Part shown: positions 8,903 through 45,746 of the stretch, in pieces
How the letters are laid out: each line of letters starts with the position of its first letter
Position numbering within the stretch: position 1 is the first letter of the stretch
DNA from: a virus
Virus record (IMG/VR): IMGVR_UViG_3300045125_000064
Location: 100,383 to 164,382 of that record
Length of the DNA: 64,000 bases
Strand: one strand, 5' to 3'
Program-made: the position numbers and the translations under genes
Notes under the pieces: model-generated
Told to the model about the DNA's origin: nothing
The model's input: the letters and a program-made list of their open reading frames with translations, nothing else
Databases searched by the model: none

Positions 8903-8948
8903 TCTCCCATTGCAAATCTAAAAACTATTTAGTTCTAGCAATGGGAGA
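8903..8948 (+). promoter_or_regulatory. ACTATTTA putative late-promoter motif inside an 11-bp hairpin covering the RBS
   Basis: tctcccattgc (8903-8913) / gcaatgggaga (8938-8948); ACTATTTA at 8924-8931; ATG at 8957. Confidence 0.65.
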
Positions 8949-8956
8949 CTCTAAAG

Positions 8957-9678
8957 ATGAATAGATTTAAAGTAAAAAAAGTAATGGCTGGAGTTATTGA
9001 TAATGTTGGCTTAACTCAAGCAGATCCAAATGAAACTTCGTTTTCAAATTTATATGATTATGGACTATATCAAAGTGGTTCTGTAAATGCAGATTTTACA
9101 AATGGTGATTTGTTAACAAACACAGAAAAATCTGCATTGGCAACTTCATGGTATACTGCATTGGAAACAGCAGCTTCAGCAGCTTGGCAGCAACTCCAAG
9201 TGCTTCAGCAATCAATCCAACAAGCAGCTATTTTTATTATCTTCCATCAGAAGCTGGGACTCATACAACAGCAGAAGTTGCTCTTTCATCTTCAACTGGA
9301 AGAAAAAATTTGGTTGTTCTATCAGAAAACGGTTTCTCAGCTAAAAAGCCAGGTTGGTATGAAGTTTCAGCATCAGATACCTCAATTACTTTTAATTCAC
9401 ATTTAACTGGCTCATATACTGGTTCACGGATTCAGATCTCATACGCTTTTATGGGAGTTTCTGGTTCAACAGATGCAGATAAATTGGAATTCTATGTCAA
9501 TGCTAATGCAGTTCCTTCAAGTTATGAAGCATTTGCTTTGAATGATACAATTGTGTCTGGTGCAATGGTTATTTCAACTGCATCAGTGACAGGTGGTGTT
9601 GAAATTAGATTTACAACAGCAACTGCACCAGATTCATCTTGGAATTCAGGTGTTTATGTTAAGGTTTCTCTTGTGTAA
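8957..9678 (+). CDS. Ser/Thr/Ala-rich putative virion/late protein (two ORFs joined by a frameshift)
   Basis: ORFs 8957-9406 and 9148-9678 overlap in different frames; composition typical of structural proteins; preceded by the late-type motif and followed by a terminator. Confidence 0.45.
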
Positions 9679-9690
9679 ATTTAAGTTTAT

Positions 9691-9719
9691 TTGCACATAA
9701 AATAAAAATCTGGTACAAT
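9691..9719 (+). promoter_or_regulatory. sigma70-like promoter
   Basis: TTGCAC-17 nt-TACAAT with GG immediately upstream of the -10. Confidence 0.6.
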
Positions 9720-9723
9720 GTTG

Positions 9724-9749
9724 AGAGGGTCTGAGAAGGCCCTCTTTTC
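9724..9749 (+). terminator. Rho-independent terminator
   Basis: agagggtc-tgagaa-ggccctct hairpin followed by TTT. Confidence 0.65.
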
Positions 9750-9769
9750 GTTTATTATTTGAGGATATT

Positions 9770-10591
9770 ATGCCATTAGAAAAAATTGAAGAAAAAAGAG
9801 AAGTCATAACAAGAGAAGTAATAATCCCAGGTTGTTATGAATATAAATGTGATTGCGGTCATGAGGATAGCTGGCCAGAAGATTATAAAAAAGAATGGAT
9901 AGAAAAATATATTAAAGAACATGAAGATATGTGCAAAAAAAGGAAGAGAATCCTTGAATTAAAGCATAGAGTCATGAAATCCTCTAGCGACAATTTCTTT
10001 TATTGTGAAAACGCAGAAGATGTTGATTTTTTATATGAATTTGGAACATTTCGCAGAAATGATAAAACTGAAGAAATTTTGACTCCAATGTCATATCCAA
10101 CATATAAGTTCCAAGGACCAGGATGGTATCTTGTTCGTTATATTCCGCCACCAATAGGTTATGAGGATTATGATTTTAAAAGAGATATTATTTCTCTTAA
10201 ACAAATAAAACATAATATCGAAAGAACAATTGAAGAAAGGCAAGAAGGCTCAAGGATATTGAAGAATTTTGAAAGAGGGAGAATAAATATGGATGAATGT
10301 TTTACTTGCGAATTCTGTGGCTCATATGAATATGAAGAAGATAGAGAATATCATCTTATCTATTGTAAGGATAGAGAGTTTACAAAAGTAAGAATTACAC
10401 AATTAAAAACAAGCATTCTTCCAATGTCAGGAAAGAAATATTTCTGGTGCGAAAATGTTGATGACGTAAGATATCTTCATAGATTTGGAGACTTCTCCAA
10501 AGAAGATCTTAAGTTTCAAGAAGATGTAGGACCTGATGAAATATGTTCAGGAAATACCTTTGTTGAAGAATACGAGATGAATTTTATTTAA
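9770..10591 (+). CDS. Hypothetical protein(s) with internal duplication, possibly two paralogous genes
   Basis: FFYCENAEDVDFLYEFGTF and YFWCENVDDVRYLHRFGDF; each half has a Cys pair; an RBS-like GGAGAATAAAT-ATG lies near 10280-10292. Confidence 0.5.
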   Translation: MPLEKIEEKREVITREVIIPGCYEYKCDCGHEDSWPEDYKKEWIEKYIKEHEDMCKKRKRILELKHRVMKSSSDNFFYCENAEDVDFLYEFGTFRRNDKTEEILTPMSYPTYKFQGPGWYLVRYIPPPIGYEDYDFKRDIISLKQIKHNIERTIEERQEGSRILKNFERGRINMDECFTCEFCGSYEYEEDREYHLIYCKDREFTKVRITQLKTSILPMSGKKYFWCENVDDVRYLHRFGDFSKEDLKFQEDVGPDEICSGNTFVEEYEMNFI

Positions 10592-10786
10592 AATTTAAAA
10601 CACCAGGTTGGTTTAGTTTTGGTTATGAAGATAGATTTGATGGAAATTATAGTTGGTATTGGAGAACATTGGAATCTTTAGAACTTATTTTAGAAAAAGA
10701 ATTAAAAAATTGCTGAAAGCAGAAGAAAATATATTGAATGTATTCAAAAATTTATTAGTGATGAGTTTGAAATTGAAGGAGAATAA

Positions 10787-43005: not shown

Positions 43006-43008
43006 TAT

Positions 43009-43132
43009 TCCGCTTTGTTCTTCTCGGGGTCTTATAAGCCTTTGGCTAAACTAGAGAAGTGGTGCCGAATGTGGTTCAATTCCACCAGAGCGGACCCTAA
43101 ACGTTTGATGATTAAAGACAATTCATTGGCGC
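43009..43132 (+). ncRNA. tRNA-like RNA; candidate bacterial-type Y RNA (YrlA-like)
   Basis: GCCGAATG (43064-71) directly followed by T arm GTGG-TTCAATT-CCAC; two alternative closing helices. Confidence 0.45.
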
Positions 43133-43806
43133 AAGAAGAATCTTGTTGTTGAGGAATGAGAAATGTTCATCCACGATGACGAATCTCCAGCACCAGAATA
43201 TAAATGGTGTCCAAACTGTGGATATAATGCTGAGATTGTTGTTTGGGATTCTTTCTTAGGAAAGAGATATAGATGTCACTGCGGATTGTTCGGAAGGTTT
43301 GGAGATGGACTCTCAGAACCTTCATTTGAACAACCACCATTTCCAAGATATGAAGGATTTTAAAAATGATTAAGATTATTAGAAAAGAACTTCCTAATTC
43401 CAAAAAGGAATATAGAGATGTTGCTTGTGGTGAATTCTTCGCTTTTGAAGAAGATGATGAAGAACTTTACATTAAGATCAATTCACAAGAAATGGATTCT
43501 TGCATCCGTTTGTGTGATAAAAGAGTCAGTTGGTTCACCCCAAGCTGTAAAGTAAAACTGGTTGATGTTGAAATTTCCTATTCTCTCCAGAAAAAAGAAC
43601 AATAAAAATGATTAAAATTATTCCACCTTTAATAACAAACACTTCCTTCTCTAAACAATAGAAAAGAAGGAAACAATCAATGATTGAGTTCAAAGATTGG
43701 TTTGCTTGATGGAAAAGGCTAAAGACAGTTAAACCAAAATGCCTGGTGCCTCTTCATTTTTGTGAATGCAAAAGATAATATGAGACTGTCTGAAAAATGA
43801 GAAAAT

Positions 43807-43885
43807 GCCGCCGTAGCCCAACAGCTAGAGGCAAACGACTCAAAAATCGTTACAGGTATGAGTTGAAATCTCATGGGCGGCACCA
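43807..43885 (+). tRNA. tRNA-Leu(CAA) with short variable region
   Basis: GCCGCC/GGCGGC acceptor, AACGA-CTCAAAA(A)-TCGTT, ATGAG-TTGAAAT-CTCAT, A73, CCA. Confidence 0.8.
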
Positions 43886-43893
43886 TTTAGAGT

Positions 43894-43933
43894 TTTGGTA
43901 GACTATTTACTCCATATAGGAGAGTCTACCAAA
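43894..43933 (+). promoter_or_regulatory. ACTATTTA motif within a hairpin covering the RBS and start codon
   Basis: tttggtagact (43894-904) / agtctaccaaa (43923-33) plus inner ctcc/ggag; motif 43902-43909; ATG 43933. Confidence 0.7.
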
Positions 43934-44577
43934 TGAGAGAACAAACAAGATTAAAACATTTAACAAGAGATGAAATAGAAGAGGCAATAAAAGCAAGTGA
44001 AACATGCAATGATGCACTTAGAAAATTAAACTTAGATTGTAAAAGTGGCTCACTTCACAAAACTCTTAAAAATTATGCAACGAAGAACAATATATCATTT
44101 GAACATTGGGCAAATGATACTGCTTAGTCAAGAGGAAAAACTGCCTTAGATGATCCAAGAGTTCTTCCAGGGAAAGATGTATCACTAATGTTCACAGAAA
44201 CAAGTAATGCTTTCTCCTTCGTACATAAGAGAATTAATTTTAAAAAGAATTTATTGGATTATCATTGTCAAATTTGTAATATGGAACCATTTTGGAATGG
44301 AAAGGTACTAAACTTTCAACTAGACCATATCAATGGAGCCAGAACCGATCAAAGATTGGAAAATCTTCGTTGGCTATGTCCAAATTGTCATAGTCAAACA
44401 GAAAATTTCTGTGGAAAGAATAAGATACCAAAGAAAAAAGCGACTGATGAACAGCTTTTTAGAGGAATGGAATAAAAGCTCATCAATGAGACAAACTTTA
44501 ATGAAATTTGGTCTTGATAATGGTCAAAACTACAAGAGGTTAGAAAAATTAATTCTCAATCAAGAGAAAAAACAATA
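43933..44577 (+). mobile_element. HNH homing endonuclease between two tRNA-Leu genes (frameshifted)
   Basis: YHCQICNME..WNGK....QLDHINGARTDQRLENLRWLCPNCHSQT. Confidence 0.9.
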
Positions 44578-44602
44578 ACTTTCTATTCTAGAAATAAATT
44601 AT

Positions 44603-44678
44603 GGAATCATATCCCAACGACAGAGGAAATAGTCTAAGAAGCTATAAAGTTTGAGTTCAAATCTCAATGATTCCACCA
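44603..44678 (+). tRNA. tRNA-Leu(AAG) with short variable region
   Basis: GGAATCA/TGATTCC, ATAGT-CTAAGAA-GCTAT, TTGAG-TTCAAAT-CTCAA, A73, CCA. Confidence 0.85.
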
Positions 44679-45746
44679 ACTTTTCTGTTCTAGTAAAATG
44701 GATTACATTGAATGGATTAATAAACATCTATTTGCACTTTTTTGGCAGAAAAATCTATTAACATTTAATACTATAAAAGGAAAAAATAAAAATGGCATTT
44801 GCAATTAAAAGTAAAGAAACTGGTCTATTTTTGACAGATCCTCGCTATTGTGCTGATATTTGGAATAAATTAGACCCTAAGTGGGTTCTTATCTTTTGAG
44901 ACAAAAGAAGAGGCACAATTAAAAATTGATCATGCAAACTCTCTGGCAGCTCTGATTCTTGGATCAGCACCTAAAGATTTTGATCATGGTTATGACATTG
45001 TTGAAATTGAGGTTATTCTCAAAGAGAATGTTCTGAACCTTCAAAGAAGGAAGAAACAAAGAAAAATGTTCAACAAACATCATATGTAATCAAGAACTTG
45101 AAAACTGGAAAGTATATGGCAGATGTTGTTAAAAATCCAGAAAGAGCGTTCTCGAATCAATGGGAAGATAGTCTAAATTCAGAATTGGTTCTTTTGCATT
45201 GCAACCCTGACTTTCTTCAAAAACAACTTGATCTTGGAATGGATATGTTCAAGTTATTTAAGGATATGTTTAATCTGAAAGACACAGATGAACAACTGAA
45301 AGTCATTCCTGTTCAAGAAGTTGATGGTGTTTGGGAAGAGGTGTAAATATGAAAACTGCTTATGCAATCAAACATCAGCCAACTGGTTTGTTTCTATTGG
45401 ATGTAGATAGTCCAAAAGTGGGATGTATATCGTATTACATGTAAACAGAAAAATATGGAATATAAAAACGATCCAAAGAATTTTTGCTCTGAATTTGAAC
45501 AAGAACATTCATTCTTTCATCAAATTGAATCATATGCTGAACTTGAATGTGAAATTACCAAGAAATTTATTAGAGAAGATCCAGAGATGCATTAAATCCA
45601 GAAGATTTTATTGTGTGTGCGATTGAATTGGAGTAGCTGAAACTTTCTATTTCTAATTATGGAAACTATTTATATATCCTTGTTCTAGATTTGGGTTTAC
45701 ATTTGGCTTTAACGTACTCATTTCGACTTTTTGGCAAGGGTTTCAT

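What the first reader, a model, noticed from the sequence alone, without database searches (positions are those of the whole stretch)
8903..45672. Recurrent ACTATTTA motif caged inside RBS-sequestering hairpins: a candidate late-promoter/translational switch
ACTATTTA was found just upstream of genes at 8924, 11260, 14877, 17885, 28332, 40174, 41116, 43902 and 45665, plus a minus-strand variant ACTACTTA at 42013-42020 before the antisense HNH gene. In six cases it lies in the loop or bulge of a 9-15 bp perfect hairpin whose 3' arm covers or abuts the Shine-Dalgarno: 8903-13/8938-48, 11252-60/11271-79, 17870-82/17899-911, 28317-31/28349-63, 40152-63/40190-201 and 43894-904/43923-33. The arm sequences are unrelated to each other, so the architecture is shared rather than the sequence. 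Three of the six precede unrelated homing endonucleases (LAGLIDADG, GIY-YIG, HNH). Established analogue: in T4, early read-through transcripts of I-TevI, gene e and soc fold over the RBS, while late transcripts start inside the hairpin. The motif here is not the T4 TATAAATA, which implies a different late promoter and sigma factor (inference). The same motif may drive tRNA transcription (41116, 45665).
Basis: partly seen in the sequence, partly recalled or inferred. Interest (0 to 1): 0.78.

Follow-up and report, generated by a model that had tools for sequence, protein, structure and literature searches.

The report
Phage late promoter caged in hairpins
An uncultured T4-related phage and hundreds of relatives mark gene starts with ACTATTTA, most likely a late promoter read by a phage sigma factor; at seven genes, mostly homing endonucleases, the motif sits in a hairpin that hides the ribosome site on earlier transcripts.

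Summary

- **Motif.** ACTATTTA occurs 9:0 (+:-) in the window and 19:0 in the 172.9-kb contig. Its core, CTATTTA, is the most enriched k-mer upstream of genes.
- **Hairpins.** Seven of 25 CTATTTA copies lie in loops of perfect 9-16 bp hairpins (0.32 expected, P about 2e-8). The 3' arms carry the Shine-Dalgarno or start codon. Four of the seven genes are homing endonucleases.
- **Location.** All seven lie in the early half of the genome. None of the five sites before structural genes, including the tail sheath, has such a hairpin.
- **Relatives.** In 80 loci around Gp23-type capsid genes the motif is 244:9 on the coding strand. It has an upstream GGCnTTT element, a G six bases downstream, an ATG 20-24 nt on, and often a terminator just before it. 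That is promoter anatomy.
- **Reader.** A long gp55-family sigma factor with a sigma-2 fold is encoded by the relatives and, split by frameshifts, by this contig.

The T4 I-TevI/e/soc gating model therefore fits, with a different promoter and sigma factor. No transcript data could be obtained, so timing and start sites are inferred. The motif is the reverse complement of the T4-type ATAAATAGT. I found no earlier description in the library searched. This is a new variant of a known kind.

The parts
8903..8948 (+). Hairpin of 11 bp (8903-13/8938-48), loop 24 nt, with ACTATTTA at 8924-8931. The 3' arm GCAATGGGAGA holds the SD. The ATG is at 8957 (149-aa ORF of unknown function, lying among DnaE fragments).
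   Evidence: Mean unpaired probability of the RBS window is 0.19 in the read-through RNA and 0.66 in the RNA started at the predicted site.
11252..11279 (+). Hairpin of 9 bp (11252-60/11271-79), loop 10 nt, with ACTATTTA at 11260-11267. The 3' arm TGTAGGAGA is the SD. The ATG is at 11286, opening a LAGLIDADG-type homing endonuclease (11286-12187, split by frameshifts) that lies in frame behind dUTPase.
   Evidence: RBS unpaired probability 0.45 to 0.87.
14877..14884 (+). ACTATTTA 35 nt upstream of the ATG at 14920 (232-aa acidic protein of unknown function). Only a 6-bp stem (14866-71/14892-97) is present and it does not sequester the RBS.
17870..17911 (+). Hairpin of 13 bp (17870-82/17899-911), loop 16 nt, with ACTATTTA at 17885-17892. 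The 3' arm abuts the SD AGGAG. The ATG is at 17925, and the ORF is broken after 34 codons, probably by frameshifts.
   Evidence: RBS unpaired probability 0.09 to 0.52.
28316..28364 (+). Hairpin of 16 bp (28316-31/28349-64), loop 17 nt, with ACTATTTA at 28332-28339. The 3' arm AAGGAAGGAGAGAAAC holds the SD and ends at the ATG of the GIY-YIG homing endonuclease (28365-29417).
   Evidence: RBS unpaired probability 0.12 to 0.89.
40152..40201 (+). Hairpin of 12 bp (40152-63/40190-201), loop 26 nt, with ACTATTTA at 40174-40181. The 3' arm CACAGAGGAAAA holds the SD. The ATG is at 40208 (142-aa protein of unknown function).
   Evidence: RBS unpaired probability 0.41 to 0.95.
41116..41123 (+). ACTATTTA 23 nt upstream of tRNA-Thr (41147-41220); no hairpin. 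A candidate promoter for the tRNA cluster.
42013..42020 (-). Variant ACTACTTA on the - strand, 21 nt upstream of an SD-preceded ATG at 41989. This opens the antisense HNH endonuclease gene (to 41371, with one frameshift).
   Evidence: The same variant is 27:6 strand-biased in the related loci.
43894..43933 (+). Hairpin of 11 bp (43894-904/43923-33), loop 18 nt, with ACTATTTA at 43902-43909 overlapping the 5' arm. The SD TAGGAG lies in the loop and the 3' arm covers the start codon at 43933 of an HNH endonuclease (43933-44475, split).
   Evidence: RBS unpaired probability 0.08 to 0.69.
45665..45672 (+). ACTATTTA 74 nt upstream of tRNA-Pro (45747-45820); no hairpin.

Best explanation
ACTATTTA is the -10-like element of a phage-specific promoter class. 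It most likely drives late genes.

**Promoter model.** The model comes from 239 sites in related phages. Counting from the first A of the motif as position 0, it reads GGCnTTT (-20 to -14), 13 nt, ACTATTTA, then a G at +13 as the likely start site. Positions A3 and A7 of the motif are intolerant of change and are spaced like the -11 and -7 bases of a sigma-70 -10 element. In this phage the upstream element is weak (TT at -14/-13).

**Reader (inferred).** The promoter would be read by host core RNA polymerase carrying a phage sigma factor. This sigma factor is a long branch of the T4 gp55 family, 240-260 aa, with a sigma-2 domain and an extra helical C-terminal domain.

**Structural half of the genome (9-88 kb).** The promoter stands bare in front of structural genes and operons.

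**Early half (88-172 kb).** This half carries sigma-70-like promoters, and every gene points the same way. Here seven copies sit in the loop of a perfect 9-16 bp hairpin.
- Transcripts that read through from upstream contain both arms, so the Shine-Dalgarno or start codon is paired and translation is blocked.
- Transcripts started at the embedded promoter begin at or within a few bases of the first base of the 3' arm. They lack the 5' arm and expose the ribosome site.

This confines translation of four homing endonucleases and three unknown genes to the period when the phage sigma factor is active.

**Shown:** the motif, its strand bias, position and conservation; the hairpins and their enrichment; the geometry; the sigma-factor gene. 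**Inferred:** the start site, the late timing, which protein reads the motif, and the effect on translation.
For: **The motif as a gene-start signal**
- Counts are 9:0 in the window and 19:0 in the contig.
- CTATTTA is the top k-mer in the -55..-12 zone upstream of genes: 10 of 25 copies, P = 1.7e-7.
- Sixteen of the 25 CTATTTA copies lie 18-45 nt before a gene start, or 23 and 74 nt before a tRNA. Among the genes are the tail sheath N-terminus and a 422-aa gene just upstream of the capsid gene.

**Conservation**
- In 80 loci around Gp23-type capsid genes (45-70% identity) the motif is 244:9 on the coding strand, the most asymmetric of all 8-mers. TATAAATA there is 29:80.
- Whole relatives give 19:1, 16:0, 10:0 and 18:0. 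Flavobacterium phage immuto gives 21:6, with the motif 18-25 nt before the ATG of the portal and other structural genes.

**Promoter anatomy in the relatives**
- The upstream GGCnTTT element is present even without upstream structure, and a G stands at +13.
- The ATG peaks 20-24 nt after the motif.
- 26% of sites follow a terminator-like hairpin plus T-run. The figure is 1% at random positions and 4% at other gene starts. The element therefore acts where no upstream RNA arrives.

**Sigma factor**
- phrog_234 (gp55 family) is matched by 29 of 30 family members.
- In the predicted structure (mean pLDDT 77.6), residues about 30-134 align with sigma-2 domains: Z = 8.2-8.6 at rmsd 2.7-2.8 Å over whole domains. 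All top 50 rows are sigma factors.
- This contig carries the gene in three frame-shifted pieces at genome 19412-20049, E = 8e-21, 2e-21 and 0.019.

**Hairpins**
- Seven of 25 motif copies lie in loops, against 0.32 expected (P = 2.2e-8).
- The split is 7 of 9 sites before protein genes in the early half against 0 of 5 in the structural half (P = 0.0105).
- The early half is marked by TG-extended sigma-70-like promoters, 12 on the + strand and 0 on the - strand.
- The predicted start falls at the first base of the 3' arm in 3 of 7 hairpins and within 4 nt in 6 of 7.
- In six of the seven hairpin sites the mean unpaired probability of the RBS window rises from 0.08-0.45 to 0.52-0.95 when the 5' arm is left out. 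The seventh (genome 95543) goes from 0.69 to 0.85. Most hairpin-less sites barely change.

**Same architecture in a relative.** In contig G005 a 13-bp stem has ACTATTTA in its loop and the SD in its 3' arm, before an HNH-type endonuclease that follows a ribonucleotide reductase gene.

**T4 precedent.** Reviewed in PMC2988022.
Against: - No RNA evidence: no sequencing run holding this DNA was listed. Start sites and timing are untested.
- Only about 16-20 sites were found in 173 kb, few for a late-promoter class. Many structural genes, the capsid gene among them, have no copy directly upstream and would have to be co-transcribed.
- The sigma-factor gene in this contig is broken by two frameshifts, like many other genes in it. 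If these are real rather than assembly errors, there is no reader.
- The link between the sigma family and gp55 is weak by sequence: best E = 7.4e-7 to the PHROG profile, an insignificant hhalign match to T4 gp55 alone, and no PDB sequence match.
- In this phage the upstream element is only a TT.
- At 11260 the predicted start lies inside the SD, leaving a 13-nt leader.
- In 5 of 7 hairpins the upstream ORF stops 0-10 nt before the 5' arm, or within the stem-loop. Terminating ribosomes could open the stem on early transcripts, so gating may be leaky.
- One hairpin site (genome 95543) shows little predicted change in RBS exposure (0.69 to 0.85).
- No close relative exists in which to test compensatory changes in the stems.
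Confidence: 0.68

Rival explanations
1. The motif is a real phage promoter, but the hairpins are not temporal gates. They serve translational coupling to the upstream ORF, since a terminating ribosome would melt the 5' arm. Alternatively they only damp translation or stabilise the mRNA. The promoter may also be of middle or constitutive class rather than late.
For: In 5 of 7 hairpins the upstream ORF stops 0-10 nt before the 5' arm or inside the stem-loop. One SD-sequestering hairpin without the motif (genome 96705-96758) overlaps a GATGA stop/start junction typical of coupling. Timing is untested. Two sites lie before tRNA genes, which need not be late.
Against: Seven of the eight long SD-sequestering hairpins found by inspecting the list carry the promoter motif in the loop. 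Coupling alone does not predict this. The predicted start coincides with the first base of the 3' arm. Hairpins are absent from all five sites in the structural region. The site at 43894 follows a tRNA-like gene, not an ORF.
Confidence: 0.17
2. ACUAUUUA acts in RNA. It would be a loop-displayed cleavage or binding site for a phage endoribonuclease or translational repressor, in the way RegB, RegA or gp32 operators work in T4. Cutting or binding in the loop would control the RBS.
For: Seven copies are displayed in single-stranded loops next to the RBS. A sense-strand bias would also be expected for an RNA signal.
Against: Most copies are not in hairpins: 9 of 16 here and more than 95% in the related loci. 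A quarter of the related sites lie just after an intrinsic terminator, where little upstream RNA arrives. An element at fixed spacing sits at the -35 position, and the intolerant bases are spaced like -11 and -7 with a G at the start-site position. This fits DNA recognition by a sigma factor. A matching sigma factor is encoded.
Confidence: 0.06
3. The functional element is the T4-type late promoter ATAAATAGT on the opposite strand. It fires leftward and makes antisense late RNAs that pair with the 3' ends of upstream genes.
For: ACTATTTAT is the exact reverse complement of ATAAATAGT. Pelagibacter phage HTVC008M carries TATAAATAGT on the coding strand before late genes.
Against: All genes lie on the + strand, so leftward transcripts would encode nothing. 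The fixed spacing to the downstream ATG, the G at +13, the -35-like element upstream and the terminator-then-motif order fit only rightward firing. The hairpin geometry has meaning only for rightward starts.
Confidence: 0.04
4. It is chance or composition: an AT-rich word that recurs in AT-rich intergenic DNA, with hairpins that are ordinary palindromes.
For: The genome is 33% G+C and holds 103 perfect hairpins of at least 9 bp.
Against: None of 100 shuffles reaches 9 copies. The strand bias is 19:0 here and 244:9 in the relatives. P = 2.2e-8 for loop residence. The motif is the top k-mer in two unbiased scans.
Confidence: 0.01

Closest known systems
T4 late promoters embedded in RBS-sequestering hairpins (I-TevI, I-TevII, I-TevIII, segB, Aeh1 mobE; also genes e, soc, 39, 25, 26)
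   Same: A gene lies inside an early or middle transcription unit. A stable hairpin pairs the SD on read-through RNA. A late promoter placed so that late RNA lacks the 5' arm frees the RBS. Homing endonucleases are the main clients (PMC2988022). Here 4 of 7 gated genes are homing endonucleases of three families, and a relative gates an HNH gene behind a ribonucleotide reductase gene, as Aeh1 mobE does.
   Different: The promoter is ACTATTTA, not TATAAATA, and has a -35-like partner element in the relatives. The presumed sigma factor is about 60 aa longer than gp55, with an extra C-terminal domain. No gp45 clamp was detected; gp33 was not searched for. The replicative polymerase is DnaE-type. 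The stems are long and perfect (9-16 bp), and the promoter fills the loop. Nothing has been tested experimentally here.
T4 gp55 late sigma factor and the TATAAATA late promoter (Straboviridae, Kyanoviridae such as HTVC008M)
   Same: A phage sigma-2-like protein of the same PHROG family (phrog_234). An A/T-rich 8-nt element at -10 before structural genes. A Gp23-type capsid and a T4-type sheath.
   Different: The motif has the opposite polarity: it is the reverse complement of ATAAATAGT. The promoter is bipartite in the relatives. The long sigma factor has a helical C-terminal domain that T4 and HTVC008M gp55 lack (185 and 192 aa). T4 itself has 0:6 copies of ACTATTTA.
Two-domain (sigma-2 plus sigma-4) alternative sigma factors, such as ECF sigma factors, and phage sigma factors like SPO1 gp28 and gp34
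   Same: The predicted fold aligns with sigmaE, SigC, SigW, sigma-H and sigma-32. The promoter has two elements about 16 nt apart.
   Different: No Pfam sigma domain is detected by sequence. The C-terminal domain was not shown to be sigma-4. The consensus elements differ from any I know of; that comparison is from my own knowledge and was not tested.

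Membership tests
T4-type late-promoter / RBS-hairpin translational gate (I-TevI, e, soc type) | A stable hairpin pairs the SD or start codon in RNA that reads through from upstream | tested here: met
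   Seven perfect 9-16 bp stems have 3' arms that contain or abut the SD or start codon. Predicted RBS exposure in long RNA is 0.08-0.45 for six of the seven.
T4-type late-promoter / RBS-hairpin translational gate (I-TevI, e, soc type) | A promoter lies inside the hairpin, so its transcript lacks the 5' arm | tested here: met
   This holds at the sequence level only. The motif lies in the loop of all seven, and the start site predicted from the relatives' consensus falls at or within 4 nt of the first base of the 3' arm in six of seven. No 5' ends have been mapped.
T4-type late-promoter / RBS-hairpin translational gate (I-TevI, e, soc type) | The gene lies within an earlier transcription unit, and the embedded promoter is of a later temporal class | tested here: inconclusive
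   All seven lie in the half of the genome that carries sigma-70-like promoters, and none lies in the structural half. The motif precedes structural genes here and in the relatives. Timing itself has not been measured.
T4-type late-promoter / RBS-hairpin translational gate (I-TevI, e, soc type) | Translation rises when the 5' arm is absent | not testable with these tools
   Only fold predictions are available. Reporter assays are needed.
T4 late promoter (TATAAATA read by gp55 with gp33 and the gp45 clamp) | TATAAATA consensus at -10 on the coding strand before late genes | tested here: not met
   TATAAATA is 10 on + and 16 on - in the contig, and 29:80 in the relatives. The motif used is ACTATTTA.
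T4 late promoter (TATAAATA read by gp55 with gp33 and the gp45 clamp) | No -35 element; activation by the sliding clamp gp45 | tested here: not met
   The relatives have a GGCnTTT element at fixed spacing. No gp45 (phrog_223) was found in the contig, which is 76% complete.
gp55 family of phage late sigma factors (phrog_234) | Sequence match to the family profile | tested here: met
   29 of 30 members match phrog_234 and match no other family consistently, best E = 7.4e-7. This contig's middle fragment gives E = 0.047. The match to T4 gp55 alone is not significant.
gp55 family of phage late sigma factors (phrog_234) | A sigma-2 fold (the domain that recognises the -10 element) | tested here: met
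   In the AlphaFold model (pLDDT 77.6), residues 30-134 align with the sigma-2 domains of sigmaE (4lup: Z = 8.6, 2.8 Å, 91 of 91 residues) and SigC (2o7g: Z = 8.2, 2.7 Å, 88 of 88). All top 50 rows are sigma factors. Z values of this size are only moderate for helical domains.
gp55 family of phage late sigma factors (phrog_234) | Binds host core RNA polymerase and directs transcription from the motif | not testable with these tools
   In vitro transcription is needed.

The most novel reading that the evidence does not exclude
The -10 element of this clade (ACTATTTAT) is not merely different from the T4-type late promoter. It is the same duplex element, ATAAATAGT, used in the opposite polarity. 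During the divergence of an environmentally abundant branch of T4-related phages, a gp55-derived sigma factor gained a second, sigma-4-like domain. It then came to read the element from the other strand or in the other orientation, together with a new -35-like box (GGCnTTT). Late transcription thereby became independent of the sliding clamp and gp33.
Probability: 0.1. Interest if true: 0.85.

Novelty: new variant of a known kind. Interest (0 to 1): 0.68.

Why it matters
- **A working promoter model for a poorly cultured clade.** The model is GGCnTTT-N13-ACTATTTA with a start about 6 nt downstream. The sigma family has more than 7,900 metagenomic homologues, but only six GenBank phage records carry it, all as 'hypothetical protein'. 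Operon boundaries and late genes in such contigs could then be predicted from sequence. One paper reports that late-promoter prediction by the cyanophage method failed for pelagimyophages, another marine T4-like group that uses the short gp55 (PMC7029224).
- **A recurring regulatory solution.** Caging a late promoter in an RBS-sequestering hairpin was known from T-even phages. It recurs here with a different promoter and sigma factor, mainly for homing endonucleases. This supports the view that such selfish genes must be kept silent early.
- **A testable system.** The long gp55-type sigma factor and its bipartite promoter offer a way to study how T4-type late transcription evolved. Flavobacterium phage immuto is a cultured member in which it could be tested.

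Tried and rejected
- **RNA evidence.** Two searches for sequencing runs, one on the tRNA region and one on the capsid region, listed none.
- **Close relatives.** Megablast of 12 kb against GenBank phages found nothing. The 422-aa gene has no relative in viral contigs. Covariation in the stems could therefore not be tested.
- **Alternative genetic code (TGA=W).** Considered because many ORFs are short. Code 4 does not repair the genes. Overlapping ORF pieces point to frameshifts instead.
- **Sigma factor by direct search.** Sigma70_r2, T4 gp55, phrog_234 and phrog_12791 gave nothing in the contig. The gene was found only with a profile built from the relatives.
- **gp45 clamp.** Not found.
- **PDB sequence search** with the sigma profile gave no match. 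Foldseek E-values were weak, 0.06 or worse. The structural call rests on VIA-align Z-scores.
- **Group I introns.** None reach Rfam's gathering thresholds in the window.
- **One-mismatch variants in this contig.** Few lie before genes. The motif is strict here.
- **Gated genes of unknown function (8957, 40208).** Pfam, PHROGs and the ESM Atlas gave no usable lead.
- **Literature.** Searches for the motif together with 'late promoter' found no earlier description.
- **Hairpins as intrinsic terminators.** Rejected, because no T-run follows any of the seven 3' arms.
- **N4-type hairpin promoters.** Rejected from my own knowledge of their 5-7 bp stems and 3-nt loops.

Full report
**Context.** The window is positions 100383-164382 of a 172,865-bp linear IMG/VR viral contig. 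CheckV estimates it as 76% complete, and its G+C content is 33%. Nearly all genes lie on the + strand. The capsid protein belongs to the T4 Gp23 family (PF07068), and the tail sheath and a baseplate wedge protein are T4-like. The replicative polymerase, however, is DnaE-type. Nothing in GenBank phages is close. The best cultured match is Flavobacterium phage immuto, at 49% identity over half of the capsid protein. Many genes are split into overlapping ORF pieces: capsid, sheath, HNH, LAGLIDADG, DnaE and the sigma factor described below. The assembly is therefore rich in indels, or the genes are decayed.

**The observation.** ACTATTTA occurs nine times in the window, all on the + strand. Shuffles give a mean of 2.63, and none of 100 reaches nine. 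In the whole contig the count is 19 on + and 0 on -. It is the second most over-represented 8-mer under a maximal-order Markov expectation. An unbiased scan of the -55..-12 zone upstream of SD-preceded gene starts puts its core first: 10 of 25 CTATTTA copies lie there, P = 1.7e-7. By inspection, 16 of the 25 CTATTTA copies lie 18-45 nt before a gene start, or 23 and 74 nt before a tRNA. The flanks add only A-A/G-A before the C, T or G after the motif, and TT at -14/-13 from the first A (12 of 16 sites, P = 2.7e-4).

All six reported hairpins exist as perfect stems of 11, 9, 13, 16, 12 and 11 bp. A seventh, of 10 bp, lies outside the window at genome 95525-95565, before an HNH-like gene. The contig has 103 perfect hairpins of at least 9 bp. 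Seven of the 25 CTATTTA copies lie in their loops against 0.32 expected, P = 2.2e-8. No other 7-mer of comparable copy number exceeds four.

**What the motif precedes.** In the structural half of the genome (about 9-88 kb) five sites carry the motif:
- the tail sheath N-terminus (genome 75219);
- a 422-aa gene of unknown function just upstream of the split capsid gene (64291);
- a 409-aa gene with a weak match to a head-tail adaptor family, downstream of the capsid gene (69230);
- two further genes (9638 and 26732).

None of these five has a long hairpin.

TG-extended sigma-70-like promoters number 12 on the + strand and 0 on the - strand. Ten of them lie beyond 88 kb or before 2 kb, which marks that part as the early region. 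All seven caged copies lie there: 7 of 9 sites before protein genes, against 0 of 5 in the structural half (Fisher P = 0.0105).

The caged genes are:
- a GIY-YIG endonuclease;
- a LAGLIDADG-type endonuclease behind dUTPase, on borderline Pfam scores;
- an HNH endonuclease;
- an HNH-like gene;
- three genes of unknown function.

**Relatives settle what the motif is.** I fetched 80 loci (832 kb) around Gp23-type capsid genes from IMG/VR, at 45-70% identity. In them ACTATTTA is 244:9 on the capsid coding strand, the most strand-asymmetric of all 8-mers. T4's TATAAATA is 29:80. Whole related contigs give 19:1, 16:0, 10:0 and 18:0, against balanced controls. Phage immuto gives 21:6, with aCTATTTAt 18-25 nt before the ATG of the portal and other structural genes.

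Aligning 239 sites shows a second element, GGCnTTT, at -20 to -14 from the first A. It is present even where the upstream DNA has no structure: G 50%, G 57%, C 38%, then T 70%, 75% and 83% at the last three positions. A G stands at +13 in 60% of those sites, and the ATG peaks 20-24 nt after the motif.

Variant counts show that A0, C1, A3 and A7 are intolerant of change, while T2, T4, T5 and T6 tolerate it. A3 and A7 are spaced like the -11 and -7 bases of a sigma-70 -10 element. On that register GGCnTTT falls at about -34 to -28 and the G at the start site.

26% of the sites follow a strong hairpin plus T-run that ends just upstream. The figure is 1% at random positions and 4% at other gene starts. 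An element that sits right after terminators must act on DNA to start new RNA. I therefore read it as a promoter. Because it precedes structural genes in a T4-related lineage, I read it as most likely late.

The contig gave no match to Sigma70_r2, T4 gp55 or the gp55 PHROGs. Two complete relatives and phage immuto do have 240-260-aa ORFs that weakly match phrog_234, the gp55 family. A profile of these finds the same gene in this contig at genome 19412-19642, 19605-19922 and 19903-20049. The three frame-shifted pieces cover profile positions 18-219, with E = 8e-21, 2e-21 and 0.019.

The family is very large. More than 7,900 homologues score below E = 1e-5, and JGI names some of them 'specialized sigma subunit'. 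In GenBank phages it appears in only six records, all as hypothetical proteins. Of 30 members, 29 match phrog_234, and they match no other family consistently.

The AlphaFold model has a mean pLDDT of 77.6. Its residues 30-134 align with sigma-2 domains of sigmaE and SigC at Z = 8.2-8.6 and 2.7-2.8 Å over whole domains. All top 50 rows are sigma factors. Foldseek E-values are weak, and the match to T4 gp55 alone is not significant.

T4 and Pelagibacter phage HTVC008M have the short form, 185 and 192 aa. The extra C-terminal helical domain, with its conserved IFNKKAIYLY-RE-T-L-TKQ stretch, may read GGCnTTT. That is an inference.

**How the hairpins would work.** With the start placed as in the relatives (+13/+14 from A0), the transcript begins at the first base of the 3' arm in three hairpins and within 4 nt in six of seven. 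Leaders are 13-27 nt. The late RNA would thus carry the SD-bearing arm but not its partner.

Partition-function folding gives the mean unpaired probability over -14..+3 around the ATG. For six hairpin sites it rises from 0.19, 0.45, 0.09, 0.12, 0.41 and 0.08 in read-through RNA to 0.66, 0.87, 0.52, 0.89, 0.95 and 0.69 in RNA started at the predicted site. The seventh (genome 95543) goes from 0.69 to 0.85. Most hairpin-less sites barely change.

This is the mechanism established for T4 I-TevI, I-TevII, I-TevIII, segB, Aeh1 mobE, e and soc (PMC2988022).

The closest related contig, G005, has the same device. A 13-bp stem TTTACCACCTCTT/AAGAGGTGGTAAA has ACTATTTA in its loop and the SD in its 3' arm, with the ATG 2 nt after it. 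The gene is an HNH/endonuclease VII-type gene behind a ribonucleotide reductase gene. A second copy in G005 sits in the loop of a terminator-like hairpin. Another complete relative, G002, has none, so caging is an option rather than a rule.

**Rivals.**
- An RNA-level signal does not explain the terminator-then-motif order, the -35-like box, or the many sites without hairpins.
- Translational coupling is possible, because upstream ORFs end 0-10 nt before five of the 5' arms. It may make the gate leaky. It does not explain why the promoter fills the loops.
- The seven hairpins are not terminators, because no T-run follows them.

**An unexplained twist.** ACTATTTAT is the exact reverse complement of ATAAATAGT. 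HTVC008M carries TATAAATAGT on the coding strand 3-30 nt before late-gene ATGs. That is why ACTATTTA is 3:24 in its record. This clade therefore uses, in the sense direction, the complement of the T4-type element. The fixed spacing to the ATG, the start-site G, the upstream box and the hairpin geometry all argue for rightward firing here. I hold the antisense reading unlikely. Whether the relation is chance or reflects a switch in how a gp55-type sigma factor reads the element is open.

**Limits.** There are no transcript data. No close relative is available for a covariation test. The sigma-factor gene is frame-shifted in this assembly. The contig has few sites (about 16-20) and only a weak upstream element.

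**Verdict.** This is a new variant of a known kind of control, resting on a promoter and sigma-factor pair for which I found no earlier description in the library searched.

Noticed in passing
Genome 65785-67585 (capsid), 75219-78043 (sheath), 19412-20049 (sigma); window 43933-44578, 11286-12187, 17925-18600: Many genes are split into overlapping or adjacent ORF pieces in different frames, and my crude gene calls give a coding density of only about 74%. The assembly seems rich in indels, or the phage carries many decayed genes. Reading TGA as W does not repair them.
   Followed up: partly
L105 (Pelagibacter phage HTVC008M, KC465899) record positions 31116-31134 and 49744-49762: TATAAATAGT stands only 3 nt before the ATG of baseplate and other late genes. 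With a T4-like start 6 nt after the motif, these late mRNAs would be leaderless.
   Followed up: no
L094 11278-11320 (relative G005): ACTATTTA fills the loop of a 14-bp GC-rich hairpin followed by TTTT. This is a terminator with a promoter in its loop, so upstream RNA would stop while new RNA, lacking the 5' arm, would not.
   Followed up: no
window 43807-43885: ARAGORN calls a tRNA of unassigned identity with a four-base anticodon (caaa), directly upstream of the 43894 hairpin. Rfam's tRNA model does not reach its gathering score there.
   Followed up: no
window 40785-40813 and 42647-42675: Two TG-extended sigma-70-like promoters share an identical palindromic 17-nt spacer, CATATGCAAATATGTGG. 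Genome-wide, such TG-extended promoters number 12 on + and 0 on -.
   Followed up: partly
Genome 96705-96758 (outside the window); window 4055-4086: Two further RBS-related hairpins lack the motif. One pairs GGAGAAAGAT just before a GATGA stop/start overlap, which looks like translational coupling. The other has the SD and ATG in its 5' arm and loop.
   Followed up: no
Genome 69178-69233: The motif site before the 409-aa structural gene follows an HNH endonuclease that has its own sigma-70-like promoter (67667). It has a weaker fold (CCATTT/AAATGG plus extensions) covering the start codon. Predicted RBS exposure goes from 0.23 to 0.69, so this may be an eighth, imperfect gate.
   Followed up: partly
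window 10818-11597: The dUTPase ORF runs in frame through the 11252-79 hairpin into the N-terminal HTH part of the LAGLIDADG endonuclease, with no stop between them.
   Followed up: no
window 31185-34657: The window carries an NAD salvage module: a NUDIX-domain protein and a nicotinamide phosphoribosyltransferase. The latter is 53% identical to that of a 642-kb uncultured phage.
   Followed up: no
Genome 78040 and 80304 (outside the window): The variants CTAATTA and CTACTTA lie 21-25 nt before a 178-aa gene just downstream of the sheath pieces and before a 677-aa gene. The matching 8-mers ACTAATTA (59:7) and ACTACTTA (27:6) are the commonest tolerated variants in the relatives.
   Followed up: partly
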